From Naegleria gruberi (lineage: Eukaryota): a stretch of 64,000 nucleotides of DNA. Made by a program: the position numbers and the translations under genes. How positions within the stretch are numbered: position 1 is the stretch's first letter; each line of letters opens with the position of its first letter. The stretch lies in assembly GCA_000004985.1 (NCBI GenBank), contig GG738928.1. One strand, 5' to 3'. Positions 4,970-64,000 of this stretch are shown here, one piece after another. The notes under the pieces are model-generated. The model saw nothing but the letters and a program-made list of their open reading frames with translations, made no database searches and was not told the origin of the DNA.

Positions 4970-7828
4970 TCAATCTTCATTAATTCCAAATTGAAAGTCT
5001 TTTGAGGAACTATCTTTTGGTAGTGTGTCGAANNNNNNNNNNNNNNNNNNNNNNNNNNNNNNNNNNNNNNNNNNNNNNNNNNTTGAATATCTGAATAGGT
5101 TTGATAAAAATGTAGTATCACATGGACAACCACTGAGATTCAACTCATCCAGTGTCTGGAAGTACATGTACATAATATTAGAAAAAATTTTAGGAAATTC
5201 AATATTTGAAAGATCCAATGTTTTCAAACATGCAAATTCCTGTAAAAATGTTCTAAACGAATCACTGTAAATTGGATTGATATCTGTACTCATATCACCT
5301 GTTATATTGTTCAATTTGACATTCTCAATGGAAGGGGAATAACTCAATGAATGAGCAATTGAAAAAAGAGCAGGTGGTGACTTGTTTCCAGTGAATTTGA
5401 ATGTCTTCAGATTCTTCTTAGCTAGTAAGCTATCTCCAATTCTTTGTGTCCCTCTTTCTCCAATATCACAATGAGAAAGATCTAAATAGGTTAGATTAGG
5501 GCAGTTTTTCAATTTTTTCAAAAAATCGGCAAGATATGAGACACCGTTATCCCCAATCTTGTTGTTGCTAAAGTCTAATATTTTCAATGATGGAAAGTTA
5601 ATATAGAATGAAGAGAGATCTGATCCTGTAATCTTTGAATCATGAAATATCAAGCTCTCTATTAATGCTCTTCTAGAATAATCACTCTTAATAGAATAAA
5701 AGAATGTCTCAAAGTCTGCTCCTTTATCCTTTTCCTGATACTCGATATTCCAATGTTTGAGAATTATTGTACTAATTGGAAGGGATGATAATATTTTCGT
5801 CAAAACATCTTGGCAACCATTGAACCAACAAGTCTCCAAACATTTGCATTTAGAATATCTGCTAATCATTCCAGAAAGGAGAATGAAATTATTTCTTTCA
5901 GCCATTTCACGAAGAGTTCTGCTCATCGACTTTTGTAAATATAATTGCATCCATGCGTCTTTCATCTCCTTTAAATAGTAAGGAAGTTTTGAAATTCTCC
6001 ATTTTGAATTGCAAGCAATTTTCCATTCTTGTTCTGATGTAAGTTTTGGCAAATCTTCTAGAACTATGTGTTTTCTAAAATTTGTTGGAGGTTTTCCATG
6101 GTAGCCTTTTTGTAAACTACTCTGAATGCAGGATTTGAGTAGTTCAATAACACTATCATGAGTTTCAAATACATGGAGAGATGACATTTCATTCAGTAAC
6201 TTGAAGAAGGTTTTAAAGTCATTCATCTTTTCAATTTGGTTCAATTTTTCTATGAACGAATCTATGGATTGATAAGGCAATATTCCACAATTTTCATTCA
6301 TAAATTTAGAAATACTTTCAATAGAGTTAAAATCGGAAAAGATCTGGATAAAGTAAATGTGTAATGTGAGTTCTTTCAACCTCTTTCTGATACTTTTGAA
6401 AGAATAGGACACTCTGTCGTCATCAGTTACTTCAGCACATTGAAAATCTGCAATTTCCTTGTAGCTCTTCAAAATATTCTTAACATATCTTGTCAAGAAT
6501 TCTCTAACATAGATATCATACAAATCTTTCCAATCAAATTTTGAAAATGGAATTAGCATTACAAAGTTTAACAAATCTCCAACTTTTTCTTTTGATCTTT
6601 CTTCACTTCTAATAAAGGAATCAATAGAGCTATTAATCAATTCACTAATCTCTGGAATTTCCTTAATCGCCTCGATCATCAATCTGAAAAATCTCAAGCA
6701 AGCCATAAATGCATTGGTGGTCTTTTCTCTCTGATCAACCATTTGAAGCAAACAATTAGACATCAATCGAGGAAGAATTTCAATAACTTGTTCTGGTGAA
6801 AAATCTATCTTTTTCGAATGGGAACTGGACAAATTAGCTAATGAAGATTTGGTAACGTGAAGAACCTTCTTGATATGAATTTCATCATTTGTTTCTGTAA
6901 GGATTGGTATCCAGTGTGTAAATGAAGTTTTCTCTCTTGACATTCCTCTCACATTATAATTCATGAACGCTCTCAATGAAAGAATATCCAGAGAGCAATA
7001 TATAGAACATATTTCCAATGATTTTGCGTTTCTCTTTTTACAGTTAATTCCATAGCCAACAAGATCACTTGTTTTGGTAAAGAAGCAAACTGAATCTGAG
7101 TTGGCTAACACTTTCTCAACTTTACAATTCATTCTTTTGAAACCATCATCTTCCTCTCTAGATACAAATGGAGGAGAAGGTAAATGATTAGAATGGCCAA
7201 CTTTTCTATTAACATATGCTTTGGCATGTGACATTGACCATTCCTGAGCTGACAAGTATTCTTCCTTTTTTTCCTCAAAAGTCTTTGGATCCTGAATATT
7301 TGACAATACTCTAGTCACATCTGCTCCATCATATAAAAACGTTTGCAACTGCATCAAGATTGAATGAACAGAATAAATTGGTTTCCACTCCTCAAGAAAA
7401 TCCAAACAAATCCTATCAGAATCGACCACATTAGGATGTTCCATCCTCGTACACAATCGAATAGTGGGCGCCTCCATTGGATAATTCTCACTAAACTTGA
7501 TCACTGCATGAAAAACCACACCATCATACATGGTATCTGAATTTCCTCGAATATTTACGTGCCACATCATGAAATCCCTCTCATCATCCACCTGAAAATT
7601 CATCTCCCGATAAATATTCATTATTTTCAAATTATCGAGAGCCTTCTTCTTCTTGATCGGAGCTGGACATGCACTCACATGACTCAGTGGATTTTCTTGA
7701 ATGTATTTAAATTCGGAATATAATCTTTTCAAGGCTAAAATTGGAGAAGTTTTACAATGTTTGTAACTATTCGGATCTGAATTTGCTTTCGAACGTGCAT
7801 TGGGCTTGATCTTTTGGTGTTGAGACAT
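4970..7828 (-). CDS. Ubiquitin-conjugating (UBC/E2) domain protein with C-terminal RNI-type leucine-rich repeats; 3' end crosses the gap
   Basis: ATG at 7826-7828. The N-terminal UBC fold includes LKRLYSEFKYIQENP, MMWHVNIRG and YDGVVFHAVIKFSENYPMEAPTIRLCTRMEHPNVVDSDRICLDFLEEWKPIYSVHSILMQLQTFL, with the HPN motif and catalytic Cys present. The C-terminal ~230 aa are LRRs (LKILDFSNNKIGDNGVSYLADFLKKLKNCPNLTYLDLSHCDIGERGTQRIGDSL...). The last ~50 codons run through the N gap, so the stop at 4970 is unreliable. Confidence 0.75.
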   Translation of the reverse strand: MSQHQKIKPNARSKANSDPNSYKHCKTSPILALKRLYSEFKYIQENPLSHVSACPAPIKKKKALDNLKIMNIYREMNFQVDDERDFMMWHVNIRGNSDTMYDGVVFHAVIKFSENYPMEAPTIRLCTRMEHPNVVDSDRICLDFLEEWKPIYSVHSILMQLQTFLYDGADVTRVLSNIQDPKTFEEKKEEYLSAQEWSMSHAKAYVNRKVGHSNHLPSPPFVSREEDDGFKRMNCKVEKVLANSDSVCFFTKTSDLVGYGINCKKRNAKSLEICSIYCSLDILSLRAFMNYNVRGMSREKTSFTHWIPILTETNDEIHIKKVLHVTKSSLANLSSSHSKKIDFSPEQVIEILPRLMSNCLLQMVDQREKTTNAFMACLRFFRLMIEAIKEIPEISELINSSIDSFIRSEERSKEKVGDLLNFVMLIPFSKFDWKDLYDIYVREFLTRYVKNILKSYKEIADFQCAEVTDDDRVSYSFKSIRKRLKELTLHIYFIQIFSDFNSIESISKFMNENCGILPYQSIDSFIEKLNQIEKMNDFKTFFKLLNEMSSLHVFETHDSVIELLKSCIQSSLQKGYHGKPPTNFRKHIVLEDLPKLTSEQEWKIACNSKWRISKLPYYLKEMKDAWMQLYLQKSMSRTLREMAERNNFILLSGMISRYSKCKCLETCWFNGCQDVLTKILSSLPISTIILKHWNIEYQEKDKGADFETFFYSIKSDYSRRALIESLIFHDSKITGSDLSSFYINFPSLKILDFSNNKIGDNGVSYLADFLKKLKNCPNLTYLDLSHCDIGERGTQRIGDSLLAKKNLKTFKFTGNKSPPALFSIAHSLSYSPSIENVKLNNITGDMSTDINPIYSDSFRTFLQEFACLKTLDLSNIEFPKIFSNIMYMYFQTLDELNLSGCPCDTTFLSNLFRYSXXXXXXXXXXXXXXXXXFDTLPKDSSSKDFQFGINED
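5033..5082. other. Assembly gap (50 N)
   Basis: Run of exactly 50 n characters, inside the 3' end of the E2-LRR gene. Confidence 0.99.
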
Positions 7829-20560: not shown

Positions 20561-21130
20561 ATGAACCGTATTTCTGAACCTAATCATACATTACATAATA
20601 CATGGACCTTATGGTATCACAGTCCTAGAAGTAAAATTAATGAACAAAATTATAAGGCTTTTTTCACCAAAGTTAAAGCTTTTACTACAATAGAGGATTT
20701 TTGGCGATTATTTAATAATGTTCGTTCACCATCATGTTTACCAATCGGAACAACATATTATTTAATGAAGGATGCTATTAAACCAGAGTGGGAAGATCCA
20801 AATTGTATCAATGGAGGAGAAATGGTTTTTAGTTTTGCTAAAAAATCAAGACAAGAAGCTGATCAATGGTGGTTGTTCTCTTGTATTATGTGTATCGGAG
20901 AAAACTTTATTGGATTGGGAGATCATATTTGTGGATGTACAGTTGCAAACAGAAAGAGTATGATTAGAATTAGTTTTTGGCTTGATACTGATGAGGATGA
21001 ATACGTCAAACGTTTGGAAGACCAATGCAAAGGTGCATTTGACATTCTCAGTGCTGGCTCAACCTTGTTCAAATTCGATTTTCGATCATTTAGAGCCAAT
21101 TTGTCCAAGATATCGAAAGCTGATGATTAA
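20561..21130 (+). CDS. eIF4E: eIF4E-family cap-binding protein, paralog 1 (intronless)
   Basis: NTWTLWYHSPRSKINEQNY...IEDFWRLFNNVRSPSCLPIGTTYYLMKDAIKPEWEDPNCINGGEMVFSF...QWWLFSCIMCIGENF...ICGCTVANRKSMIRISFWLDT. The cap-stacking Trp positions (LW.., PEWED) are conserved. Confidence 0.85.
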   Translation: MNRISEPNHTLHNTWTLWYHSPRSKINEQNYKAFFTKVKAFTTIEDFWRLFNNVRSPSCLPIGTTYYLMKDAIKPEWEDPNCINGGEMVFSFAKKSRQEADQWWLFSCIMCIGENFIGLGDHICGCTVANRKSMIRISFWLDTDEDEYVKRLEDQCKGAFDILSAGSTLFKFDFRSFRANLSKISKADD

Positions 21131-21615: not shown

Positions 21616-22286
21616 ATGAGCAGCGAAAAGAAGGTAATTGATCAAGAAGAAATTGAAAATGACACTGAAGCCGAAGTTAATGAAGAAGTAGCAGAAAGGC
21701 CTATTTTAGAAAATACTTGGACATTATGGTATCATAACCCTCAAGCTAAACTTAACGAGCAAAACTATTCTCACTTTTACAATGAAGTCTATACATTCTC
21801 GGATGTTGAAACATTTTGGAGTGTTTTTAATCACATTAGAGGACCTAGTGAAATATCGACCGGTACAACTTACTTTTTATTGAAGGAAGGTATAAAACCA
21901 GAATGGGAAGATCCAAAATGTATTGGTGGTGGTGAATGGGTTTATAGTTTCCCTAAAAAGCACGTTCCAGCTGATCAATACTGGTTAGATTTAGTGATGT
22001 TTTGTGTAGGAGAGTCATTTACTTATTCGGATAATTTGCTTGGATGTTGTGTTGCCAACAGAAAGAATCAAGTATGTAATATTTAAATAATTAATTTATA
22101 ATAACTTTAATATAGATTCGTATCAATTTGTGGGTAGATACATTGGATGAAACAATAGCAAAGAGATTTGGAGAGCAATTCAAATTTGAAGCCTTAAAAA
22201 TAGGAGCAAATACAAATATCAAAATAGACTTTAAATCTTTCAAAGATCAATTGGACGGTAAAAAGACAGTTTTACAAGTAGTGTAA
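21616..22286 (+). CDS. eIF4E: eIF4E-family cap-binding protein, paralog 2; exons 21616..22071 and 22116..22286, intron 22072..22115
   Basis: NTWTLWYHNPQAKLNEQNY...VETFWSVFNHIRGPSEISTGTTYFLLKEGIKPEWEDPKCIGGGEWVYSF...LLGCCVANRKNQ, then GTATGT..(44 nt)..ATATAG, then IRINLWVDTLDETIAKRFGEQFKFE.... The junction is phase 0 and colinear with paralog 1 (ANRKSMIRISFWLDT). Confidence 0.85.
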
Positions 22287-29732: not shown

Positions 29733-32010
29733 ATGCCTTTAAATGCATCGAATGTATCCAACAGAAGTAAGGATGATGTGATCATCGAGGATGGGTATAC
29801 AGCATCTTCATCGTTATCGTCATCCTCATTATCGTTATTAAGGGCAGGTGATAGTAAAAGCTGCAGTAGCTGTTCAATAGAAGCAGCAACTCCATGGAAA
29901 CAAGATACATCCTCATCATCAACATCAGATGACTTCATAATTCCTATTCGGAATGGTAGGAGCAACTCTCGCCAATTCATAAAAACACCATCCTTTTCAT
30001 CCCTTTCAACAATAATAGATTCTTCACTTCCATCAACGCCTAAATCATTGCCTTCATCACCATCATCATTACAAAATCATCAAGAAGGAACAGAACCACC
30101 TCTTACTGATACTCTCCTAGTTAAATCGATGAGCGAATGTAAGAATGACATGGAGAGGGGCATGTTGAACATGTTGGCTGATAAGAAGAATCTTCAGAGA
30201 TTGGTCGGAATTCTCTTCATCTTTGCCACTCTACAAAGTGTTCAACAAATGACACTCTATGAAAATTTATTGAATATTGCCTTTTTCCTTGTTCAGTGCC
30301 TTAATAATTATTTAAGACAAACTAATAATGATACAGCTCTCACCTATGAGGAATCATTCAAACATTTGGATAAAAGAGAAATTATAAGAACTGTTTTTTC
30401 AATGGTCATGTACACTTTGAGAATGATGTATCTTCCCAAACACAAGATGATTTTCCTTCCAGTGCTTTTTATTTGGTTTGCAGGAGCTAACAAACTATAT
30501 ATCTACTCTACATTTTGGGGATTACTACCCACTTACTATGCTTCAGTGATGTATATATCGTTGGCTTGCTATTTTGGATTTTATGAATTGTTAGAGAATG
30601 GGTACACTGAGACATTTCTAAATTTAATGATGGATTACTTTATTTTGGTGGCTGTGGTGTGGATGTGGACATATTATCTGGTTAATGTAACTGGATTCTT
30701 GAAACACAAAGTGGACAAACTGAAGGAAACAAGGAAACGTTTGGAAAGTGCTTTGGAAGCACGAAGTAGATTCATTGCACATGTGAGTCATGAATTCCGT
30801 TGTCCAATCATGTCCAGCATTGGGTGTTTAGAATTGTTGAAAGAAACTCCTCTGAATGAGAAACAAAATGATCTCGTAGATACAATAGTTTCATCGAATA
30901 GTGTCATTCTTCTATTGATTGAAGACATTTTACAAATTGTTAAAATTGAACATGAAAGTAAGGGTGCAAAGAAGGAAGATACAAATATTCAACCTTTCAA
31001 TATTTTCGAATCATTGAAATCGCTGAAAGGAATAATTTCTGGTTATGCTTCGAATTTTAAGGTTAAGCTTAATTTGGAAATTGATGAAGGAATTAAGAAC
31101 TTGACAGTTTTATCAAATCCTTCAAAGATCCATCAAATACTTTCTAATTTGCTGACGAATGCAGTGAAAGCATCAAAGAAAGATGATGATGTTTGGCTTA
31201 AATGCAATATTTTGGAAAAGAAAGATGATGAAACTGTAAAGATTAGATTTACTTGTCAAGATTTTGGATGTGGAATTCCTCCTAATTTGTTGGAATCTAT
31301 ATTTGAACCCTTTGTACAATTGCAAAATAATTCACAATCAAAAGTACCTAGCTCTGGGCTAGGATTGACTACAGTATCTCATTTAATCAAGACATTGAAT
31401 GGAACTATTAACGTTGAATCACAGGTTGGAATAGGAAGCTCATTTACAGTTGACTTGGCTTTTAAAATTGTTCCAAACGAGGTAAAATATAAAGTTCAAG
31501 AAAATGTTGTTGTAGAAGAAAAGAGATCGAAACTACACTTGAACGTTCACAAGAATTACTTGAACCTGATGTCACATTTAGAAGAAGGTGAAAAGGAAAT
31601 GGAAGAAACTCCAAAATTCAATTCCAATGTTTTGATAGCTGAAGATAATCCAATCAATAGAAAAGTTATTGTAAAGATGATTAATAGTATGGGAAGTGAA
31701 ACTGATTTTGTTTGTGATGGAAAGGAATTGGTTGAAAAGTTTAATCCAAGCACTCACAAAGTTGTATTTACTGATATGGTAGGTAGCTCAAATTTCGTTT
31801 TTTAAGGTCTAATAACAATAATAGAATATGCCAAATATGAACGGATTAGAAGCAGCCAAGAAATTAAGAGAAAAATTTGGAAATACTTTCAGGATTTATC
31901 TCTTGACAGGAAATGTCACAATTTCATTATCTGATGAAATTGGTGTGTTTGATGGAGTGTTAACTAAACCTTGTTCTAAACAGGATTTGAAAAAATGTTT
32001 GGAAAATTAG
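29733..32010 (+). CDS. Membrane-bound hybrid histidine kinase (about 6 TM + HisKA + HATPase_c + receiver); exons 29733..31778 and 31825..32010, intron 31779..31824
   Basis: H box RSRFIAHVSHEFRCPIMS, N box LSNLLTNAVKAS, G1 QDFGCGIP, G2 SSGLGLTTVSHLIKTLNGTINVES. Receiver: VLIAEDNPINRKVIVKM...KVVFTDM/NMPNMNGLEAAKKLRE...VLTKP. The GTAGGT..TAATAG intron is phase 0 and lies directly after the phospho-acceptor Asp-Met. Confidence 0.9.
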
Positions 32011-35648: not shown

Positions 35649-36725
35649 TTAGTGTCTTGGACCGTAGTCTCTACTGTCTCTAGGACGAGATTCAAACTCA
35701 TTACGAGATGATCCTTGATTGTTGTTCTTATTTGAATCATTGGTTGTTCTTCCATATGAAGGTCTATCAGAATAATTTCCATAAGATTGATGTCTGTCAT
35801 AATATGCTCCTCCTCTATTGTTGTTGTTATTGTAAGAACGAGGTGGTGGAATTTCAATTTGATTTGAATTATCAGACACTCTACCATAAGAAGATGTTGG
35901 ACCATAATAGGATGAAGAATTATTTCTTGAATCAACTCTTCCATAGTGAGGTGAATTATTTTGTGGAGGAGGGTAAGGTTGATATCTATTATTATTATTG
36001 TTGGAATAGTGATAATCACGAGTTGATCGTGGATTTCTGTATGGTGATGATGGCCTAGAAGATGACGATCCATATCGATCTCGATCATCTCGGAATGGAG
36101 GAGAAGGTGGAGAATAATTATCAGAGTGACGATGATGATCTGATCCATTGTTTCCTCCACGATGATAGTCATTATTATAGGATGATGATCTGCTACTATC
36201 ACGATCATTATCATAAGATCTTCTACCAGACATTGAACCTCCTCCTCTTGGTTCTCTTCCACCTCTTGGTCCTCGTTTCTTTAGCATCTTTATATAATCA
36301 TCTCTCTTCATACCACCATCTTTTCCTCTTCCGTATTGTCTCCCTTCTACGAAACCTGTATCGATGGCAATTTTAAGAGCACGATTATTTAATTTACATC
36401 CTCTACAATATTTAACGCATTCCTCTGCATCGGATCTGTGATAGAACTCAACAAAACAAAATCCACAAGGTGTTAACGTATTTCTATTTAAACCCATTAC
36501 AACTCGCTTAACTTCTCCACATTTTTCAAACAATTCGTATATTTGCTCCTCCTTGGTATAAAAACTTAGATTTTCTACATAGATTGTTGAAGATTGAGAA
36601 AGTGCCCTCTCGAAATCCTCTTCATTTCCGCCCTCATTTACATAGTGTTTTAATAAATATTCATATTCTCTCTTGCTTCCGTGAAAAAATTTTAAAGGAT
36701 GATGAGCTTCGAGAAGATGAGCCAT
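35649..36725 (-). CDS. NCBP2: Nuclear cap-binding protein subunit 2 (CBP20) with long R/G/S/Y/N-rich C-terminal tail
   Basis: [61 protein letters not shown]...[18 protein letters not shown] matches the CBP20 RRM and its flanks. The track start at 36788 is GTG. The first ATG is at 36723-36725 ([10 protein letters not shown]-rich context). Confidence 0.9.
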
Positions 36726-37056
36726 TTTTTTTGTATCTAAATTTTTATTCTTCCCCTTCAACATTAATTCATCGAGCCTTCTTTGCACAAAGGAATATCA
36801 ACACCACAAACATAGCTTAGCATAGCAGACAAAGAGGCTTTGACAGAGTTGTGGATTCTTTGCCATCACCCTTGACTAGACATGGTACAAGAAAACATTT
36901 TGCACAACATTGGAATGCCCTTTGAAATGAATTATCATAACATACACACCATTAATACCTTACTGCCCTCTTATTGTGACAGGTCCATTTATCTATTGTT
37001 TATTGTCACAGCACAGTATGAGGACACAGTAATGAATTAACATCTTCTTTTAAAAA

Positions 37057-40000
37057 ATGCCTCAAGATAGAAGGGCCAACCTCTTGCTCTTGATTATCAC
37101 AGTTATTTTGTGTTTCGCAGCAACGGCCGACTTGTCTAAGGGAATTTTAACGGAGGCAGAATATCAAACCTACATCTCCAATTCATGCCCTTCTAAGCCT
37201 CTCTCCACTGATGCTTGGTACTCTGAGGAAAGTAACTTGATAAATATTATTCTTGCGGGTGATAATTCAAAGCTTCCTCTGATCTACCCTCAGGAGTATT
37301 CGACGAATAACACTATTGTAAGGGATGATATTCTCAATACAACTACAACAAGCAACTCTTCACCAGCAACAACAATATTACAATCAGGAAACAATACAAC
37401 AGTGAACAACTCCTCCTCAACAAGCAACACAACTATTACCATTATTCAAGGGTGGGATGATCTTCTCAAAGTTCTTAATGAGACTTTGAAACCCAACGCT
37501 ACCCTCGCTGATAACTCAACAAGTGGAAATAATAGTTCTCTAGGATCGAATGGTTCAATCATTTTTAATTCCACCAATTCACAAACAACTACTAATGGAA
37601 ATGTACCTCTGTTGAATACTACCCTTAACTCAACCACAAACTCTAGCCCTTCTGTTGGAACAAATACAACAAATACTCAGTTATCCTCCAATACAACCCC
37701 TAGTGTTATTTCGAATAGTACTGGTACAGCTTCGACAATCAATTCCACTAATGCTAACCTGAACACAGTGAATGGAACAAGCGGAAGTACAGAAATTGGT
37801 TCGACCTATGGATCCAACAGCACTTCTGGTCAAGGTAATAGCACAACCACGAACACGCCATTTGGTTCTAACTCTAATTCCATAGGATCAACAATAGTAA
37901 CTAACGGAACTGTTGCAGCCGGTGCAATTTCTAGTTCAACAGTAACCTCAAACGGTGGGTATGTTGGCTCCAATACCTCTGGTTCAATAAGCACAACTTC
38001 AACTGGATCTAATAGCCAAGGATTAGGATCTAGCTCCTCCACAAATGTCTCTGCTAATAATACTGCAACTGTTAGTGGACCTTCAAGTGGATTTAATTCT
38101 ACTTCTGGGGCAACTTCTGGGGCAAACAACGGTTCCGTTACAACAAGTACTGGAACAAATGGTCAATCAACTACTGGAACAAGCTTAGGATCGACCTCCT
38201 CTAATGGTTCAAACAGTGGTTCAACTAATGGAACAAATACAGGTTCCGTTTCCACAAGTACTGGAACAAGTGGTTCCTCTTCAAGTGTTTCAACAAACTC
38301 AGGATCAACAAGCTCTTCTAACTCTGGTTCAACTAATGGAGCAAACACCGGATCAATTGGCGTTTCTAACTCTGGATCTTCTATTGGAACAAATACTGGT
38401 TCTGGTTCAACAATCACTGGAACCAGTTCAGGTTCTTCAACTAGTTCTAACACCAATACAGGAAACAATAATGTCTCCAATTCTGGATTAAATGGTCAAG
38501 GAACAAATTCTACTTCAAGCTCCTCAGCTACTAACATTTCAGGTTCAAATAATACTGGATCAAGTAATCAAGGAAGTAATTCAGGATCCAGTTCTACTGG
38601 AACAAGTAGCACTTCAAGTACTGGATTAAATGGTAGCGTTTCTTCAGGTGGTTCTAACACTGGAACAAATGGAGTATCAAATAATGGATCAGCAACTGGC
38701 ATTGCTCCCAATGTCTCTGGAACAAGTGGTAGTTCCTCTTCAAGTGTTTCAAACACTGTCTCCTCAAACTCAGGTTCGAGTGCTAATAATACTTCAACTG
38801 TTAGTGGACCTTCAGCAGGATCTAATTCTACTTCTGGAACAACTTCTGGAGCAAACAGCGGTTCCGTTACAACAAGTACTGGAACAAACGGTCAATCAAA
38901 TTCTGGAGCTAGCTCAGGATCTACCTCCTCTGGCTCTTCAAGTGGTTCGAACAGTGGTCCTGGCTCTAATACTGGTACAAGTGATACTAATACAGGGTCA
39001 ACAAGCTCTTCTAACTCTGGTTCTTCGAGTGGAGCAAGTACTGGTTCAGGTTCTTCAACAAATTCTAACACTAATCCAGGAAACAACAATGTCTCCAATT
39101 CTGGATTAAATGGTCAAGGAACAAATTCTGCTTTAGGCTCCTCAGCTACTAACATTTCAGGAGCAAGTAATACTGGACAAGTTCTACATCTCAAGCTCTG
39201 GATTAAGTAATTCAGGATCCAGTTCTACTGGATCAAGTAGCACTTCAAGTACTGGATTAAATGGTGGCTCTTCTACAGGTGGTTCTAACACTGGAACAAA
39301 TGGAGTATCAAATAATGGATCAGCAACTGGCATTGCTCCCAATGTCTCTGGAACAAGTGGTAGTTCCTCTTCAAGTGTTTCAAACACTGTCTCCGCAAGC
39401 TCAGGTTCGAGTGCTAATACTTCAACTGTTAGTGGACCTTCAGCAGGATCTAATTCTACTTCTGGAACAACTTCTGGAGCAAACAGCGGTTCCGTTACAA
39501 CAAGTACTGGAACAAACGGTCAATCAAATTCTGGAGCTAGCTCAGGATCTACCTCCTTTGGCTCTTCAAGTGGTTCTACCAATGCTGGACCCAATTCTAG
39601 TAGTAATTCAACGGTCAGTGGTGGTTCTTCAAATGCATCTGGTTTTACAAGTACTGGACCGAATACTCAAGGTGGTTCATTATCTGACTCCTCAAATACT
39701 GGAACTGCTAGCACTCCAAGTGCTGGATTAAGTAGTGGATCTTCTTCAGGTGGTTCTAACACTGGGACAAATGGAGCATCAAATAATGTTTCTGGAACAA
39801 ATGGTGGTTCATCTTCTAGTGTAACAAACAGTGGTTCTGGTTCTAATACTGGTATTAATACTGGAACAATTGGCGTTTCTAACTCTGGATCTTCTATAGG
39901 AACTGGGGTAAATACTGGTGCTGGAGCAAGTTCAGGATCTTCAACAAATTCTAACATCAATACAGGAACCAATAGTGTCTCCAATTCTGGATTAAATGGT

Positions 40001-42713
40001 CAAGGAACAAATTCTACTTCAAGCTCCTCAGCTACTAACATTTCAGGTTCAAGTTATACTGGTACAGGAGGTACTACCTCTTCAAGTTCTGGATTAAGTG
40101 GTGGTTCTTCGTCAGGTAATGCTATTACTGGATCAACAACTGGCAACACTGCAAATGTCTATGGAGGAAATGGTGTTATCAATACAGGATCAACCAGCAC
40201 TGGAGCAAATACTGGTTTACCAAGCACAGGACCTTCAACTACTCAATCACTGGAACAATTGGTGTTATCAATTCAGGATCAACGAGCTCTTCTAACTCTG
40301 GATCTTCGCCTGGAGCAAATACTGGTTCTGGTACAACAATCACTGGAACTAGTTCAGGATCTTCAACAAATTCTAACACTAATACAGGAACCAATAGTGT
40401 ATCAGGTTCAAATACTAGTGGCTCTATCACAAGCCCATCCACTGTATCCACTAGCTCTTCTAACATTGGAACAAATACTGGTTCCGGTTCGAGTAATACT
40501 GGAACTTCTAGTAATGGATCAATTGTTTCAAATAGTGGCTCCACAAGTACTGAAACTACTAGCACCCCAAATACTGGATTAAATGGTGGTTTTTATTCAG
40601 GTGGTTCCAACACTGGAACAAATGGAGTATCAAATAATGAATCAACAACTGGTATCACTACAAATGTTTCTGGAACAATTGGGGGTTCATCTTCTAGTGT
40701 ATCAAATAGTGGTTCTGGTTCTAATACTGGTATTAATACTGGAACAATTGGCGCTTCTAACTCTGGATCTTCTATTGGAACAAATAATGGTTCTGGTTCA
40801 ACAATCACTGGAACCAGTTCAGGATCTTCAACTAGTTCTAACATCAATACAGGAAACAATAATGTCTCCAATTCTGGATTAAATGGTCAAGGAACAAATT
40901 CTACTTCAAGCTCTTCAGCTACTAACATTTCGGGTTCAAGTAATACTGGTACAGGAGGTACTACCTCTTCAAGTTCTGGATTAAGTGGTGGTTCTTCTTC
41001 TGGTGGTTCTAACACTGGAACAACTGAATCAACAATTGGCAACACTGCAAATGTCTATGGAGGAAATGGTGTTATCAATACAGGATCAACCATTTCTGGA
41101 ACAAACACTGGTTTACCAAGCACAGGAGCATCAACTACTTCAACAGGCAATCCTGGTTCTGGTTCAGCAAACACTGGAACCACTTCAAACGGTTCTACCA
41201 ATACAGGTACCACAATTAATAGTGGTTCAGGATCTACCAATACAGGTACCACAATTAATAGTGGTTCAGTATCTGGTTCTTCAACAGGTTTAAACAACTC
41301 TGGTTCTTCAACAAATAACAGTAGCTCAACAATTTCTACCACAACAAACCCAGCCACTTCCAGTGGTTCAGGATCTTCAACAAATTCTAACACTAATACA
41401 GGAAACAATAATGTCTCCAATTCTGGATCAAATGGTCAAGGAACAAATTCTGCTTCAAGCTCTTCAGCTACTAACATTTCAGGTTCAAATACTAGTGGTT
41501 CAAGCTCATCTTCTGGTTCTTCTAACACTGGAGCAAATACTGGATTAACAAGCACAGGACCATCCAATACTCCAACCAATAATGGGGGTTCCTCTAATTC
41601 TGGGTCAAGCTCTAGTGGAACTAGTGGTTCAACTTCAGTTATTTTTGGAGCAACAAGCTCCTCCAATCCTAACTCTGGCTCTAATACTGGTACAAGTGGT
41701 GATACCAATACAGGATCAACGAGCTCTTCTAACTCTGGATCTTCGACTGGGGCAAATACTGCTTCAAGCAATGCTGGATCAGGTACAAACAATGGAAACA
41801 ATGGATCAACAAGTTCAAATAGCAATTCAACAAGTTATAGTGCTCTTGATACTCTTCGTAAAGAAATAGAACGATTAGTTACAGATATTATTGGGCGACC
41901 TGATCCAAACCTGCCAACACCAGATCTTCAAAAAGGAATAGACACACTTAAAAATGACATTCTTGGTGTCAAACCTGCCTCACCGACTACTACTAGTCTA
42001 CCACCAACTCAACAAACTCTAACAGCTCAATTAACAACTCACCAACATCAAACAATAATGTTACAAAACCTTCTAACAATACAAACACAACCACAACCCT
42101 TAACGCCTCAAAAAGCACAACCCCAACAAGGAACTCAACCACTACTTCGACTAGTGTATCAACCACAACAACCGATAGTACTTCCAATGCTATTCAGTCA
42201 AGTAATAGAAACAACAATGCTGGAAGTCCAATCAGATGTAAACAGAAATGTCCTGTTAGGTATGAACAGAAAGTGTGTATAACCAAAAGAAAAACCAGTA
42301 GTTCTTCTTCTGTTGTTGCATCCAATATTGTTGCAGTCATGGCAGAGAACATTGCCACCATTAAGAATGGATCACCTGATGGGTTAATAATTGGTTTATC
42401 TGTTGCAGGAGGTGTGTTAGCAATTCTGTGTTGTACAGGATCGTCTATCATTGGATGTGTTCTGTACGCTAAGAGAAAGAGAAATAATTTCTGGAATCTT
42501 TATGAAGATAAAAATGTCAGAATGCTTATGGAGGGTCACATTGATGAAAGTGCATATGCAGATGTTGAATTAGAGGATGATGAAGAATTTGATCCACTAG
42601 AAGCAAAATCTTCTTACTCTGGCTCTAATGAAGATGATTTCAAGTTTGACGAAGAATCAGAAGAATCTTCAGAATCAGATAAACAAGAAGAAGAAATTGA
42701 ATTTGAATATTAA
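37057..42713 (+). CDS. Giant mucin-like Ser/Thr/Asn/Gly-rich surface protein (signal peptide ... TM + acidic tail); reading frame broken at least 3 times (pseudogene or assembly errors)
   Basis: Signal peptide MPQDRRANLLLLIITVILCFAATA from ATG 37057. The S/T/G/N-coding frame is frame 1 to ~39190, frame 2 to ~40243, frame 1 to ~41995, then frame 0 to the stop at 42713. The last segment holds a Cys motif (CKQKCPVRYEQKVC), the TM helix LIIGLSVAGGVLAILCCTGSSIIGCVLY and an acidic tail. The middle frames have no start codon, so they are absent from the ORF track. A ~90-nt block (GGAAACAATAATGTCTCCAATTCTGGATTAAATGGTCAAGG...) recurs at 38461, 39079, 39965, 40852 and 41401. Confidence 0.6.
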
Positions 42714-42836
42714 AAAACTAGTAATAAATTTAATATCAAATTATATGAGTTTTAATTCCTTAAATCGTTGGAGCGGGATTGAAAGCCATTGAAATAGAAA
42801 CACGAAAACTTCAGCTTGGAAACTAAAAATAAAAAA

Positions 42837-44150
42837 ATGTACAACAATAATAATAATTCATCCTTCTACTCTTCGGGTACAGGATTTGTACCACCAACTC
42901 AGGGTTATTCCTATCAACAACCTCCTCCTATCAATACACAACCTCCTATCAATAATATGAATTCATCTTTTTCCAATCTTCCAAAAACATCCTATTATTC
43001 AGGTACAACAACAACAACAACAGCAGATCAAGCACAAAGAATTAGACAATTACAAGCTGATTCTATAATTAAAAGATTTCATAATGCTAAAATTGTTTCT
43101 ACATTAGATAATAATGTACTTGATGTTCCTATTACATTAAAGAATGGACAACAAATTACTTTCCGTGTTTTAATGCAACAAGCCTTCCCACAACAACCAC
43201 CTCTAATTACTACTCTCTGTACAATTAAACATGCAAATGTTGATTTAAGTGGTTACGTTGTTCATCCACAATTAAGACAATGGACTCAACAATCAAGTCT
43301 TGGAGATGTTTTGACAATAGTTTTTAGAGATTTTATCAACACTCCTCCAAACTATATTTCTGATGAATTACCAAAGAATCATATCACAAAAACAACAGCA
43401 AATATTGGTATGATTACTCCTCCAATCGGATCTACTCCTCCTCCTGGTTTAAATCAAACATCTCCATTGATGTTTAATCAACCTCCAATTAATCAACCTC
43501 CAATGACAAGTTCAACTTATCCTCCAAATAATACAATTCCATCCATGACAAATCCAATGACTAATTCAATGACAAGTACTGTCCCAACAAATACTCAACC
43601 AACTTTCCAAGATTCCTCTTGTATGATTCCTTTACCAAATATTCCAACAAACTTTTCTGAAATTTCTTTACTTGAAGGAGTTGATGCCGTTCAAAAATTA
43701 CTTGATAGTGAAGAATTATTCAAGCAGTTTATTGAAAACTTATCATTTACAAGAGAAGCAAAGAATATTTATCAAGATTTGAGAAATGCCAATATGGATA
43801 TTGCCAAGAGAAGTGTAGAAAAAGATGAACAAATCAATAACACTCTCAAAGAACAAATTACTCAAAAAAAGGCAGAAGTTGACAGACTTTTGGATCAAGT
43901 TCAATTTTTACAAAATAAGCAACAACAACTTTCTCAAAGATATGCACCAACTCAATTATTAATTATGTTAAATGAAAAGATTGATGAAGTTGACAATGAA
44001 AGTGAACAAGTAGGAGATTTGTTCCTTGATAGTCCAACAGCTGAACCACATCAAGTGAAAGAATTTATTGACAAGTATTTGGAAAAGAGAACACTTTATT
44101 ACTTGAGAAGACAAAAACGTGATCGTTTCAAGGATACCTATATTAAATAA
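42837..44150 (+). CDS. VPS37: ESCRT-I subunit VPS37 (Mod(r) domain) with P/Q/N-rich, possibly UEV-like N-terminal region
   Basis: C-terminal Mod(r) pattern: LLDSEELFKQFIENLSF...NANMDIAKRSVEKDEQI...RYAPTQLLIMLNEKIDEVDNESEQVGDLFLDS...VKEFIDKYLEKRTLYYLRRQKRDRF. The track start at 42816 is TTG. The ATG is at 42837. Confidence 0.75.
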   Translation: MYNNNNNSSFYSSGTGFVPPTQGYSYQQPPPINTQPPINNMNSSFSNLPKTSYYSGTTTTTTADQAQRIRQLQADSIIKRFHNAKIVSTLDNNVLDVPITLKNGQQITFRVLMQQAFPQQPPLITTLCTIKHANVDLSGYVVHPQLRQWTQQSSLGDVLTIVFRDFINTPPNYISDELPKNHITKTTANIGMITPPIGSTPPPGLNQTSPLMFNQPPINQPPMTSSTYPPNNTIPSMTNPMTNSMTSTVPTNTQPTFQDSSCMIPLPNIPTNFSEISLLEGVDAVQKLLDSEELFKQFIENLSFTREAKNIYQDLRNANMDIAKRSVEKDEQINNTLKEQITQKKAEVDRLLDQVQFLQNKQQQLSQRYAPTQLLIMLNEKIDEVDNESEQVGDLFLDSPTAEPHQVKEFIDKYLEKRTLYYLRRQKRDRFKDTYIK

Positions 44151-55901: not shown

Positions 55902-55951
55902 NNNNNNNNNNNNNNNNNNNNNNNNNNNNNNNNNNNNNNNNNNNNNNNNNN
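55902..55951. other. Assembly gap (50 N)
   Basis: Run of 50 n, with a further single n at 55974. Confidence 0.99.
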
Positions 55952-61902: not shown

Positions 61903-63135
61903 ATGGCTAAAAAGAAGAATAATAATAAGAATAAGAATTCAGCCTCTTCGGCAACAACACCAGTTTCACCAGTGAGTGAAGTCAGTGAGGATAATAGTAT
62001 TGAAGAAACTGTTACATCATCAACAACAATGGAAGAGGAACAAACAGTATCAACAACAACTCAAGAATCTACAATTGATGAAGCCTCCACAATAACTTCT
62101 ACCACTGAACAACAAGAAGAAGAAGAAGCCTCTGATAAAATTCAACAACCTGAAGAAGTAAATTCATCATCTACAACAACAGCCATTGTTACTGAAGGAA
62201 TACCAACAACTAACACTGTTGAAACATCTGATTCTATTACTACTACTAATACTAATACTACTACTATTGATAATAACATTCCAACAAGTAGTACAACAAC
62301 AACAACAATTGAAGAAGAAGAAGAAAAAACAAATCAAAAAAGTGAAGAAGAAATTATAACAGAAGAAATTGAAAAATTAAAAGAAGATTTAACTGATCGT
62401 GTTAAAGTAGTAAGAGAAGAATTAGAATTACAATATGAAATTGAAATTAAAAAATTACAAATTGATCATCAAGAATCTTTAAAAAAACAATTAGATTTAT
62501 ATGAAAATAAGATTAATTCACTTGTTGAAACTCATAAATATGAAATTGAACAATTAAATGCTCAATTAAAACAAAAAGATGAAGAAAATTTAAATGAATT
62601 GGAAAATATTAAATTATTAGAAATTAAATTACAAGATCAATTAAATGAAAATAATTCTAAAGATTTAATAATTAATAATTTAAATAATAATATTGAAAAT
62701 TTAAATAATAATATTAATAATTTAAAAAATGAAATTGAAATTAAAAAATCTGAATTAAAAGAAAAAAATGAAAATTCAAATGAATTAAATGAAACTATTA
62801 AAAAACATTTAGAAAAAATTCAAAATTTAGAAAGAGAAGAATTAAATTCATTACAAAAAATTAATCATTTAAATCAACAATTAAAAACAACAAGTGAAAA
62901 GAATTCTGAATATGAAAATAGAATTTTACAATTAGAAGAAGAATTAAAATCACAAAAAGAAAATGAAACAATTATTTTACATAAATATTATCATCATGCT
63001 TTATTAGCTGTAAAATTAACTTTATCAAATATTAATTTTTCAGTTCCAGATTTGTTAGATGATTGTATTAAAGAACAAGTTAAAGAAGAAGATTTAGATT
63101 CTTGGATTACAAAGAAATTAGAATTACAAAATTAA
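61903..63135 (+). CDS. Coiled-coil protein with S/T/E-rich N-terminal region, no family recognised
   Basis: 410-codon ORF from ATG 61903. Residues ~150-370 show heptad-like K/E/L/N/I repeats (EIEKLKEDLTDRVKVVREELELQYEIEIKKLQIDHQESLKKQLDLYENKINSLVETHKYEIEQLNAQLKQKDEE...). Confidence 0.7.
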   Translation: MAKKKNNNKNKNSASSATTPVSPVSEVSEDNSIEETVTSSTTMEEEQTVSTTTQESTIDEASTITSTTEQQEEEEASDKIQQPEEVNSSSTTTAIVTEGIPTTNTVETSDSITTTNTNTTTIDNNIPTSSTTTTTIEEEEEKTNQKSEEEIITEEIEKLKEDLTDRVKVVREELELQYEIEIKKLQIDHQESLKKQLDLYENKINSLVETHKYEIEQLNAQLKQKDEENLNELENIKLLEIKLQDQLNENNSKDLIINNLNNNIENLNNNINNLKNEIEIKKSELKEKNENSNELNETIKKHLEKIQNLEREELNSLQKINHLNQQLKTTSEKNSEYENRILQLEEELKSQKENETIILHKYYHHALLAVKLTLSNINFSVPDLLDDCIKEQVKEEDLDSWITKKLELQN

Positions 63136-63269
63136 ATATTTTAATATTTATAATTATAAATAAAAAAAAACAATTTAAATTATTAAATCATAATGTGTTT
63201 TAAATTGTTGTTGATGAAGAAGAATATTTCAAAAGTTTAAATTATTATTAAATAAATTATTAATCAATT

Positions 63270-64000
63270 TTATCGTTCATTTATTTGATCATCAGATTCA
63301 TAACCAGATAATTGATTTAATTGATTATTATTATTTGGAAGTATAATTTCATTTAAAATTGTATTTAATTGATATTTTAATTCATCTTTAAATTGTTGTT
63401 GATTTATAATATTTGAATTATTATTTAAATTATTATTTAAATTATTTAATTTAAATTCAATTAAATGATTTAAAATATTTTTTAAAAAAGCATGATCATT
63501 TCCATGTAAAGAAATAAATAAATTATTAAATAATTCTAATAAATTATTATTTAAATCAATATTACTATATATATTAATTAAAGTACGTAACCATAAATCT
63601 AATTCATCTTGAGATGAACAACTCCATTCACTAATTTCACCATTTATAGTTTTAATTTCAAATCTAAATTTTAAATCATTATTTTCATTTTGTAATCTTT
63701 TTATACTTGTTATACTATTTATATCTATTATATTATATTTGGAATTTGAATCATTTCTATAATATAATTTACTTCTTTTAATTTTAACTTTGGTTTTTTG
63801 ATATCCAATTCCATTTTTACGTTTTTTAAATAAATTCCTTTTAAATCATATTTAATTATATTTTCATTTTTTTTAAAATTATTAAAATTATTATTATTTA
63901 AATTATTACTATTTATATTATTATTATTTATATTAATAATTGTATTTCTTGTTTGTTGTAAATTATTATCACTAATAGTTTGTCTATGAGTATTAAATTC
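63270..64000 (-). CDS. PH-domain protein, 5'-partial (runs off window end); apparent 1-nt frameshift in a homopolymer at 63832..63837; absent from the ORF track
   Basis: Read by hand on the minus strand; the stop TAA is at 63270-63272. The frame from ~63838 down reads LFKKRKNGIGYQKTKVKIKRSKLYYRNDSNSKYNIIDINSITSIKRLQNENNDLKFRFEIKTINGEISEWSCSSQDELDLWLRTLINIY (PH-like), followed by an N/Q/L-rich tail. The upstream frame from the window end reads ...NFKKNENIIKYDLKGIYLKN and is offset by one base. One extra A in the A6 run would give KGIYLKKRKNGIGY. Confidence 0.65.

What the first reader, a model, noticed from the sequence alone, without database searches (positions are those of the whole stretch)
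37057..42713. 5.6-kb mucin-like repeat gene whose coding frame jumps 1-2-1-0
The signal peptide at 37057 and the Cys motif, TM helix and acidic tail ending at 42713 imply one surface glycoprotein gene. The only compositionally sensible frame (S/T/G/N-rich) changes at ~39190, ~40243 and ~41995. At 40243, comparison with the paralogous repeat at ~41120 (TCA ACT ACT TCA) points to loss of a single T. No GT..AG pair of plausible length bridges any of the breaks; the best candidate, at 41968..41996, is only 29 nt.

The array is built from higher-order units of ~0.55-0.89 kb. It contains >100-bp identical stretches (for example ~38648 versus ~39279), which favours both gene conversion and assembly error. 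Because of the codon composition, nearly all six frames stay open, which explains the many antisense and alternate-frame ORFs in the track.
Basis: partly seen in the sequence, partly recalled or inferred. Interest (0 to 1): 0.5.

Follow-up and report, generated by a model that had tools for sequence, protein, structure and literature searches.

The report
Frame-broken Naegleria membrane mucin gene
A gene for a very large, sugar-coated membrane protein, conserved across Naegleria amoebae, is interrupted in the N. gruberi reference by four missing single bases; this is most likely a draft-sequence error or a dead allele, not new biology.

Summary
The window is Naegleria gruberi NEG-M, a Sanger draft genome. 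The frame jumps at 37057-42713 are real in the sequence. The S/T/G/N-rich frame runs 0 -> 2 (13 nt only) -> 1 -> 0 -> 2, so there are four single-base deletions, at about 39177/8, 39190/1, 40243 and 41997. Adding four bases gives an uninterrupted 1886-aa ORF.

Intact single-exon orthologs lie in the same place, just upstream of VPS37 and ARPC1, in N. fowleri (FDP41_006272, 583 aa), N. lovaniensis (C9374_008402, 691 aa) and an environmental Naegleria. They share the signal peptide, a small N-domain (NSCPSKPL), a juxtamembrane helix, a C-x3-C-x8-C motif, a TM helix, YAKRKR and an acidic tail. It is therefore one gene: a lineage-specific type I membrane mucin, expanded about threefold in N. gruberi.

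Canonical introns do not explain the breaks. Real introns in this window are 35-71 nt and AT-rich, with GTA[AGT]GT donors; none lies at a break. Every other indel between paralogous units is a multiple of three, and the repaired frame has no nonsense codon.

These tools cannot separate consensus error (about 0.5) from a genuine recent null allele (about 0.35). Public NEG-M nanopore and RNA-seq reads would decide. Interest is low.

The parts
37057..37137 (+). Start codon and N-terminal signal peptide (MPQDRRANLLLLIITVILCFAATADLS)
   Evidence: This is the strongest hydrophobic peak of the protein, at residues 9-27. It aligns with the N-termini of the N. fowleri and N. lovaniensis orthologs, which also begin MPQ.
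37138..37332 (+). Conserved N-terminal domain of about 65 aa (ILTEAEYQxYIsNSCPSKPL...LPLIYP), with one invariant Cys
   Evidence: tblastn of the ortholog ORFs hits 37054-37332 at 45-46% identity. Alignment A2 has 23 invariant columns. There is no Pfam hit, and the single-sequence AF2 model was uninformative (pLDDT 51).
37333..39177 (+). Mucin-like S/T/G/N-rich region, first part, read in frame 0
   Evidence: STGN fraction is 0.74-0.90 with no stops in frame 0. This part belongs to the 717-aa ORF 37057-39210.
39177..39191 (+). Break 1: two single-base deletions 13 nt apart, after 39177 and after 39190. The frame goes 0 -> 2 -> 1.
   Evidence: Alignment to four paralogous copies shows the gaps. 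The 1-nt gaps fall at 39177 and 39191 against 39930-40099 and 40817-40986.
39191..40243 (+). Mucin-like region, second part, read in frame 1
   Evidence: STGN fraction is 0.74-0.86 with no stops in frame 1. It is collinear with paralog 38426-38948 at 95.8% identity.
40243..40243 (+). Break 2: one T missing (ACTTCA -> ACTCA). The frame goes 1 -> 0, at a junction between two repeat-unit types.
   Evidence: Alignment 40150-40246 vs 41047-41143 shows a single 1-nt gap. Downstream sequence matches a different unit, 41679-41765.
40244..41835 (+). Mucin-like region, third part, read in frame 0
   Evidence: STGN fraction is 0.80-0.90 with no stops. It contains repeat blocks shared with 38323-38558 and 39785-40246.
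41836..41967 (+). Conserved juxtamembrane helix-like segment (YSALDTLRKEIERLV...PDLQKGIDTLKNDILG), frame 0
   Evidence: It aligns with ALKQLEQDIKEQIPSNPKPDFKQSLKILLGDIKG of the orthologs.
41995..42010 (+). Break 3: inferred single-base deletion, most simply AGTTCT -> AGTCT at 41997. The frame goes 0 -> 2.
   Evidence: Frame 2 has a TAG at 41994-41996, and frame 2 becomes the best-scoring frame from about 41990. The conserved helix lies in frame 0 and the conserved Cys motif in frame 2. There is no paralog here, so the exact base is inferred.
41998..42230 (+). Second S/T/N-rich spacer of about 78 aa, absent from the orthologs, read in frame 2
   Evidence: It appears as an insertion relative to all orthologs in A3. 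A codon table trained on the non-repeat N-terminal mucin part prefers frame 2 by about 10-21 nats per 20 codons over 42000-42209.
42237..42278 (+). Conserved Cys motif C-x3-C-x8-C (CKQKCPVRYEQKVC)
   Evidence: R, C, C, P, R, Y, E, V and C are invariant in alignment A3. The tblastn HSP starts at 42231 in frame 2, which tblastn reports as frame 3.
42381..42467 (+). Transmembrane helix (GLIIGLSVAGGVLAILCCTGSSIIGCVLY), including a CC pair
   Evidence: This is the second and only other hydrophobic peak, at residues 1780-1806. It is conserved in the orthologs.
42468..42713 (+). Cytoplasmic tail with the stop codon: AKRKRNNFWNLYEDKNV, then an acidic (36% D/E), Ser-rich tail ending EFEY
   Evidence: YAKRKR-N-F...Y..KN and the terminal Y are invariant in A3.

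Best explanation
**What the locus is.** It is the N. gruberi ortholog of a single-exon gene specific to the Naegleria lineage. It encodes a type I membrane, mucin-like glycoprotein with these parts, in order:
- signal peptide
- small conserved N-domain
- a huge S/T/G/N-rich stalk, probably heavily glycosylated (83% S/T/G/N, 81 N-x-S/T sequons)
- short helix
- C-x3-C-x8-C motif
- TM helix
- basic stop-transfer sequence and an acidic, Ser-rich cytoplasmic tail

In N. gruberi the stalk has grown to about 1500 aa by segmental duplication and gene conversion of 0.1-0.5 kb blocks.

**What the frame jumps are.** They are four missing single bases in the reference sequence. I think the most likely cause is consensus error in the unfinished Sanger draft of a heterozygous diploid. 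The errors sit where near-identical repeat units or allelic 3n-indel variants make the read alignment ambiguous. On this reading the real gene is an intact ORF of about 1886 codons.

**Shown versus inferred.**
- Shown: gene identity, orthology and synteny, break positions, absence of canonical introns at the breaks, and the 3n rule for all other indels.
- Inferred: that the four deletions are artefacts rather than mutations; glycosylation, surface location and function.
For: **Organism and assembly.** The neighbouring VPS37 gene is 100% identical to N. gruberi XP_002669340. The NEG-M reference is Sanger-only and Naegleria is a heterozygous diploid (PMC9928731). The window carries draft marks: 50-N gaps and single Ns.

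**One conserved gene.** Intact ORFs occupy the same slot in N. fowleri (three independent assemblies), N. lovaniensis and an environmental contig. Both N. gruberi termini match them: BLASTP E 2e-33 and 2e-21, tblastn hits at 37054-37332 and 42231-42548. All 40 invariant columns of the C-terminal alignment are kept, although that part lies downstream of all four frameshifts.

**Easy repair.** Four inserted bases give 1886 codons with no stop, although 3.8% of random substitutions would create one.

**The 3n rule.** Every other indel between paralogous units is 3, 6, 9 or 15 nt. The only non-3n gaps are the break sites.

**Location of the breaks.** Breaks 1 and 2 sit at variant or unit-junction sites of the array.

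**No substitute copy.** A full HMMER scan of 1.84 billion representative proteins returned six hits and none from N. gruberi, so no annotated N. gruberi protein carries this C-terminus. A true loss would, as far as the annotated proteome shows, remove a genus-conserved family.
Against: - Sanger consensus errors are normally rare and scattered. About 40 kb of other long ORFs in the same window are intact. All five ORF junctions I checked in other genes are explained by canonical introns. Local quality would therefore have to be about tenfold worse here.
- Exact repeats are at most 143 nt, shorter than a Sanger read, so gross misassembly is not forced.
- Break 3 lies in non-repeated sequence.
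- The N. gruberi annotation has no protein with this C-terminus. That fits a locus the annotators could not model, whether the breaks are errors or real.
- No read-level or independent N. gruberi sequence could be reached.
Confidence: 0.5

Rival explanations
1. The four deletions are real. The assembled haplotype of NEG-M is a recently inactivated (null) allele or unitary pseudogene of the mucin gene. At most it would make a 717-aa secreted, anchorless mucin from ORF 37057-39210. The frameshifts arose through out-of-register slippage or recombination in the repeat array.
For: - The rest of the window is clean at base level, so a cluster of four errors is unexpected.
- Breaks 1 and 2 are at repeat-unit junctions, where real out-of-register recombination can occur.
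- No annotated N. gruberi protein covers the C-terminus.
- Naegleria is described as a heterozygous diploid that reproduces mainly by mitosis (PMC9928731). By inference, one allele could decay while the other works.
Against: - The repaired frame has no nonsense codon in 1886 codons.
- All conserved residues of the now-untranslatable C-terminal domain are intact.
- All other indels obey the 3n rule.
- The gene is intact in every other Naegleria genome examined, and no second annotated N. gruberi copy was found.

Any inactivation must therefore be very recent, yet four independent frameshifts had to accumulate in that time.
Confidence: 0.35
2. Some or all breaks are bridged at the RNA level by non-canonical short introns or exitrons. 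Candidates are 39167-39215 (49 nt, GTAATA..CAG) at break 1 and 41968-42197 (230 nt, GTCAAA..CAG) at break 3.
For: - Phase-correct GT..AG pairs exist at every break.
- N. gruberi really does use very short introns of 35-71 nt.
- Removing 41968-42197 would leave exactly the 11-residue spacing between the helix and the Cys motif that N. fowleri and N. lovaniensis have.
Against: - None of the candidates has the GTA[AGT]GT donor seen in all verified introns. The only such hexamer on the + strand of the gene is at 37959, far from any break.
- Candidate 'introns' have AT 0.48-0.66, like the surrounding exon, against 0.72-0.91 for real introns.
- Their sequence is collinear with coding repeats in the paralogs.
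- For 41998-42230, the sequence is an open mucin-like frame preferred by the gene's own codon usage.
- AGT and CAG are simply abundant in Ser/Gly/Gln-rich coding sequence.
Confidence: 0.06
3. The genomic frameshifts are real, but translation or RNA-level recoding restores a full-length protein. The mechanism would be four -1 ribosomal frameshifts, transcriptional slippage, or nucleotide (U) insertion.
For: Only circumstantial. Two of the four missing bases are shown by paralogs to be a T lost from a TT pair, and all four are compatible with a missing T.
Against: - No slippery X_XXY_YYZ heptamer or homopolymer tract is present at any break.
- Four sequential events would multiply to negligible yield.
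- As far as I know (not checked here), nuclear insertional editing has not been described in Heterolobosea or elsewhere.
Confidence: 0.01

Closest known systems
N. fowleri FDP41_006272 (XP_044559511.1, 583 aa) and N. lovaniensis C9374_008402 (XP_044545521.1, 691 aa), both annotated 'hypothetical protein'
   Same: They occupy the same genomic slot, immediately upstream of VPS37 and convergent ARPC1. They are single exons with the same architecture and motifs: MPQ... signal peptide, NSCPSKPL domain, helix, C-x3-C-x8-C, TM with CC, YAKRKR and an acidic tail ending in Y. Termini are 42-45% identical.
   Different: The N. gruberi copy has a stalk about three times longer, built from G/S/T/N-rich segmental repeats. 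It has an extra 78-aa S/T/N spacer before the Cys motif. It is interrupted by four 1-nt deletions in the reference. The orthologs' stalks are Q/S/T/P/N-rich and not obviously repetitive.
Transmembrane mucins and mucin-like surface sensors (animal MUC1-type mucins; yeast Msb2/Hkr1 and Mid2/Wsc-type sensors). The comparison is from general knowledge and was not tested.
   Same: Type I topology, a very long Ser/Thr-rich and presumably heavily glycosylated rod, variable-length repeats that evolve by unequal recombination, a short conserved juxtamembrane module, and a short cytoplasmic tail.
   Different: No sequence or domain relationship was found: no SEA, WSC, HMH or Pfam Mucin match. The stalk is unusually rich in Gly and Asn, with many N-x-S/T sequons. 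The family has so far been found only in Naegleria-like genomes and a few unidentified environmental contigs.
Frameshift artefacts and pseudogenes in repeat-rich surface-protein genes of draft genomes
   Same: Single-base indels confined to a repetitive, low-complexity ORF. The gene is restored by a minimal repair, intact in sister species, and was left unannotated.
   Different: Nothing distinguishes this case from that class. It remains unresolved which of the two it is.

Membership tests
Naegleria FDP41_006272 / C9374_008402 orthogroup (uncharacterised membrane mucin) | Conserved N-terminal domain with the NSCPSKPL motif after a signal peptide | tested here: met
   Alignment A2 has 23 invariant columns including C44-P-S-K-P-L. 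BLASTP against the N. lovaniensis ortholog gives E 2e-21.
Naegleria FDP41_006272 / C9374_008402 orthogroup (uncharacterised membrane mucin) | C-terminal module: C-x3-C-x8-C, TM helix, YAKRKR-N-F, and an acidic tail ending in Y | tested here: met
   Alignment A3 has 40 invariant columns. phmmer gives E 2.9e-24 and 8.4e-22 against the two orthologs.
Naegleria FDP41_006272 / C9374_008402 orthogroup (uncharacterised membrane mucin) | Syntenic position upstream of VPS37 and ARPC1 | tested here: met
   Gene order is conserved in L001-L004 and L006. It is not conserved in Willaertia.
Naegleria FDP41_006272 / C9374_008402 orthogroup (uncharacterised membrane mucin) | A single uninterrupted ORF | tested here: not met
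   The window sequence needs four 1-nt insertions to give one ORF. Whether that reflects the organism or the assembly is unknown.
Membrane-tethered mucin-like glycoprotein (functional class) | Signal peptide plus a single C-terminal TM helix (type I topology) | tested here: met
   There are only two hydrophobic peaks, at residues 4-27 and 1780-1806. This is Kyte-Doolittle hydropathy, not a dedicated predictor.
Membrane-tethered mucin-like glycoprotein (functional class) | Long Ser/Thr-rich repetitive ectodomain | tested here: met
   S 27%, T 17%, G 15% and N 14% overall; 83% STGN in residues 96-1595; 81 N-x-S/T sequons. Segmental repeats are at 84-96% identity.
Membrane-tethered mucin-like glycoprotein (functional class) | Actual O- or N-glycosylation and cell-surface location | not testable with these tools
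   This needs biochemistry or microscopy.
Spliceosomal introns of N. gruberi (as an explanation of the breaks) | GTA[AGT]GT donor, YAG acceptor, 35-71 nt, AT at least 0.72, as in the five verified introns of this window | tested here: not met
   No such donor lies near any break; the only + strand hit in the gene is at 37959. Candidates have AT 0.48-0.66.
Pseudogene | Disabling mutations in the coding frame | tested here: inconclusive
   Four frameshifts are present in the reference. There are no nonsense codons after repair and the conserved residues are intact. They cannot be told apart from consensus errors without reads.
Pseudogene | Loss of expression or of full-length product | not testable with these tools
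   No N. gruberi transcript or read data are reachable here. Public RNA-seq exists (GSE287846; PMC12344493).
Programmed -1 ribosomal frameshifting | Slippery heptamer X_XXY_YYZ at the shift site | tested here: not met
   Sequences at the four sites were read directly (ACTGGACAAG, ACATCTCAAG, ACTACTCAATC, ACTAGTCTACC). None is slippery.

The most novel reading that the evidence does not exclude
The four single-base gaps are genuine in the NEG-M genome, and the cell still makes the full-length anchored mucin. It would do so by correcting or bypassing them at the RNA or translation level, for example by U insertion or slippage at sites that are all compatible with a missing T. A milder version is that NEG-M genuinely converted a genus-conserved anchored mucin into a 717-aa secreted one.
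Probability: 0.01. Interest if true: 0.85.

Novelty: new member of a known kind. Interest (0 to 1): 0.2.

Why it matters
The main value is for annotation. The analysis recovers a conserved single-copy Naegleria surface-protein gene for which no annotated N. gruberi protein was found, and gives a repaired 1886-aa model.

It also defines a small, uncharacterised, lineage-specific membrane-mucin family that includes a protein of the pathogen N. fowleri (FDP41_006272). That protein could be of interest as a surface or glycocalyx component or an antigen. The roughly threefold stalk expansion in N. gruberi is an example of rapid repeat evolution under a strict 3n constraint.

The frame jumps themselves are ordinary. 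Either explanation, draft error or a recent null allele, is a known phenomenon.

Tried and rejected
**Rejected readings**
- A dictyostelid origin, my first guess from AT-richness and poly-N proteins. The 100% VPS37 match to N. gruberi rules it out.
- Several separate genes. The single orthologous ORFs rule this out.
- Excising 39178-40242 (1065 nt = 3n) as a misassembled insert. Homology to paralog 38426-38948 runs straight through break 1 to 39576. The return to frame 0 at 40243 is a coincidence of three -1 events.
- Treating 'all deletions sit in 2-nt homopolymers' as a signature of sequencing error. It is not significant: 51% of bases lie in runs of 2 or more, and the identity of two of the four missing bases is ambiguous or only inferred.

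**Searches that found nothing**
- Two word-indexed homology searches with the termini. This was a sensitivity failure, because the full HMMER scan later found the orthologs.
- Exact-product look-ups of N. gruberi ORFs, to reach independent assemblies or transcripts.
- Two metagenome scans for relatives.
- Pfam on the N- and C-terminal parts: only sub-threshold noise.

**Uninformative or irrelevant**
- The single-sequence AlphaFold model of the N-domain had pLDDT 51, so I ran no fold search.
- The bacterial promoter/terminator scan does not apply to a eukaryote.
- TRF finds only three small arrays, so the repeat structure is segmental rather than a regular tandem array.
- Fritz-Laylin et al. 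2010 is not held in the paper library.

Full report
**Source of the window.** The window is AT-rich eukaryotic DNA. The gene immediately downstream of the finding (42816-44150, a VPS37/Mod_r protein) is 100% identical to Naegleria gruberi XP_002669340 / NAEGRDRAFT_75751. The N. gruberi NEG-M reference is a Sanger-only draft, and Naegleria is described as a heterozygous diploid (PMC9928731). The window shows draft marks: two 50-N gaps and two isolated Ns.

**Checking the observation.** Stop-free stretches, translations and STGN content per frame in 50-codon windows agree. With frame = (pos-1)%3, the only mucin-like, stop-free frame is:
- frame 0 from 37057 to about 39177
- frame 1 to 40243
- frame 0 to about 41996
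- frame 2 to the stop at 42711-42713

**The break points.** DNA alignments against paralogous repeat copies place the breaks to the base.
- Break 1 is two 1-nt deletions 13 nt apart: GGA[T/A]CA -> GGACA after 39177, and TCTTCA -> TCTCA after 39190. The frame passes briefly through frame 2.
- Break 3 has no paralog. It must lie at or after the frame-2 TAG at 41994-41996. Codon-usage scoring puts it at about 41990-42010, and AGTTCT -> AGTCT is the simplest repair.

Inserting four bases yields a 5661-nt ORF of 1886 codons with no internal stop.

**Repeat structure.**
- Exact repeats of 143 and 119 nt exist.
- Larger blocks recur at offsets of 0.47-0.89 kb with 84-96% identity.
- TRF sees no regular long-period array, so the structure is segmental.

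**Two reader statements need correction.**
- Phase-correct GT..AG pairs are abundant at each break.
- Only the sensible frame, the frame one base downstream of it and, partly, one antisense frame are depleted in stops. The others have more than composition predicts.

**What the gene is.** The N. fowleri and N. lovaniensis VPS37 loci each carry a single intact ORF in the same orientation directly upstream of VPS37 and convergent ARPC1. These are 583 aa (FDP41_006272, identical in three assemblies) and 691 aa (C9374_008402). An environmental Naegleria contig shows the same arrangement, and a 384-aa relative comes from another metagenome.

These proteins match both ends of the N. gruberi locus. 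The N-terminal 92 residues are 45% identical and the C-terminal roughly 140 residues 42% identical. tblastn places the matches at 37054-37332 and 42231-42548, in different frames of the window.

Alignments A2 and A3 define a shared architecture:
- signal peptide
- a domain of about 65 aa with invariant NxCPSKPL
- a low-complexity stalk
- a helix-like segment
- C-x3-C-x8-C
- a TM helix containing CC
- YAKRKRxNF...Y..KN
- an acidic, Ser-rich tail ending in Tyr

No Pfam family matches. A full HMMER scan of 1.84 billion representative proteins returns only six hits: the two named orthologs, three environmental sequences and one spurious insect protein. None is from N. gruberi. The family is therefore tiny and lineage-restricted. 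No annotated N. gruberi protein carries this C-terminus, and no annotated paralog was found.

The repaired N. gruberi protein is 27% S, 17% T, 15% G and 14% N, with 81 N-x-S/T sequons. Its stalk is about three times longer than in the orthologs. It also has an extra 78-aa S/T/N spacer between the helix and the Cys motif.

**Are the breaks introns?** Five ORF junctions in other genes of the window are bridged in phase by introns. These are 35-71 nt long, with AT 0.72-0.91, donors GTAAGT/GTATGT/GTAGGT and YAG acceptors. The genes include the histidine kinase, the eIF4E copy and 27527/28969, 50685/51500 and 16839.

In the mucin gene the only such donor hexamer on the + strand is at 37959, far from any break. 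All phase-correct GT..AG candidates have exon-like AT content of 0.48-0.66 and weak donors. At breaks 1 and 2 the flanking sequence, including the best short candidate at break 1, is collinear with coding repeats.

One candidate deserves mention. Removing 41968-42197 (230 nt) would reproduce the orthologs' 11-residue spacing before the Cys motif. Against it, the donor is GTCAAA, AT is 0.59, and the stretch is an open mucin-like frame preferred by the gene's own codon usage. I give RNA-level splicing about 6%. No break has a slippery heptamer, so programmed frameshifting is rejected.

**Error or real?**

*Favouring artefactual or very recent frameshifts:*
- All other indels between paralogous units are 3, 6, 9 or 15 nt. 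The only non-3n gaps are the breaks.
- The repaired frame has no nonsense codon in 1886 codons, although 3.8% of random substitutions would create one.
- The C-terminal module retains every invariant residue although it lies downstream of all four frameshifts.
- The gene is intact in all other Naegleria genomes examined, and no annotated N. gruberi protein could substitute for it.
- Breaks 1 and 2 sit at variant or unit-junction sites. There, reads from two haplotypes or units of a heterozygous diploid would align ambiguously.

*Favouring real mutations:*
- The rest of the window looks clean: about 40 kb in long ORFs, with the junctions I checked explained by introns.
- Exact repeats are shorter than a Sanger read.
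- Break 3 lies in unique sequence.
- Out-of-register recombination at unit junctions is a natural source of frameshifts.

I could not reach any independent N. gruberi sequence. My estimate is about 0.5 for consensus error, 0.35 for a genuine recent null allele or pseudogene, 0.06 for non-canonical splicing and 0.01 for recoding. The remainder is unassigned.

**Likely function (inferred).** I read this as a type I membrane mucin. A glycosylated, extended S/T/G/N stalk would project a small conserved N-terminal domain from the amoeba surface. It would be anchored through a conserved Cys-containing juxtamembrane/TM module, and the conserved basic/acidic cytoplasmic tail probably carries sorting or signalling information. 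Stalk length evolves quickly by segmental duplication and gene conversion under a 3n constraint. None of this was tested experimentally.

**Novelty and verdict.** The gene is a new, unannotated member of a known functional kind and of a small uncharacterised Naegleria family. The frame jumps are an ordinary phenomenon, either draft error or a recent null allele. Public NEG-M nanopore and RNA-seq data (S-BSST1363, GSE287846; PMC12344493) would settle the matter quickly. Interest is 0.2.

Noticed in passing
window 20561-21130 and 21616-22240 (+): Two eIF4E genes sit in tandem (Pfam IF4E, E 1e-41 and 3e-39). The second is split by a 44-nt, 91% AT intron at 22072-22115 (GTATGT..TAG).
   Followed up: partly
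window 29733-32010 (+): A hybrid histidine kinase (HisKA, HATPase_c and a receiver domain). Its receiver domain is interrupted by a 46-nt intron at 31779-31824 (GTAGGT..TAG), right after the conserved Asp-Met.
   Followed up: partly
window, several genes (donors at 19284, 22072, 28905, 31779 and 51397 on +; 58776 on -): Introns in this window are very short (35-71 nt) and AT-rich (0.72-0.91), with GTAAGT/GTATGT/GTAGGT donors.
   Followed up: yes
window 5033-5082, 55902-55951, 46192, 55974: Two 50-N gaps and two isolated N bases show that this is unfinished draft sequence. The ORF 4970-7828 (-) runs across the first gap.
   Followed up: no
window 35649-36788 (-) versus L001/L004 upstream regions: Synteny with N. 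fowleri and N. lovaniensis covers only mucin-VPS37-ARPC1. The N. gruberi upstream neighbour is a CBP20-like RRM protein with a long N/S/R/Y-rich tail. It is not the upstream neighbour in the other species, and Willaertia lacks the mucin at this position.
   Followed up: partly
window 39178-40243: The first three single-base deletions sum to -3, so the original frame 0 is regained at 40243. The intervening 1065 nt has many stops in frame 0, so this looks coincidental rather than compensatory.
   Followed up: yes
window 62001-64000: GC drops to 18% at the right end of the window, against 27-41% elsewhere. I did not examine this region.
   Followed up: no
tool behaviour (versus 36): The word-indexed protein search returned nothing for the termini. 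The exhaustive HMMER scan later found the N. fowleri and N. lovaniensis orthologs at E 1e-22 to 1e-24. Negative results from the indexed search are unreliable for low-complexity-flanked queries.
   Followed up: yes
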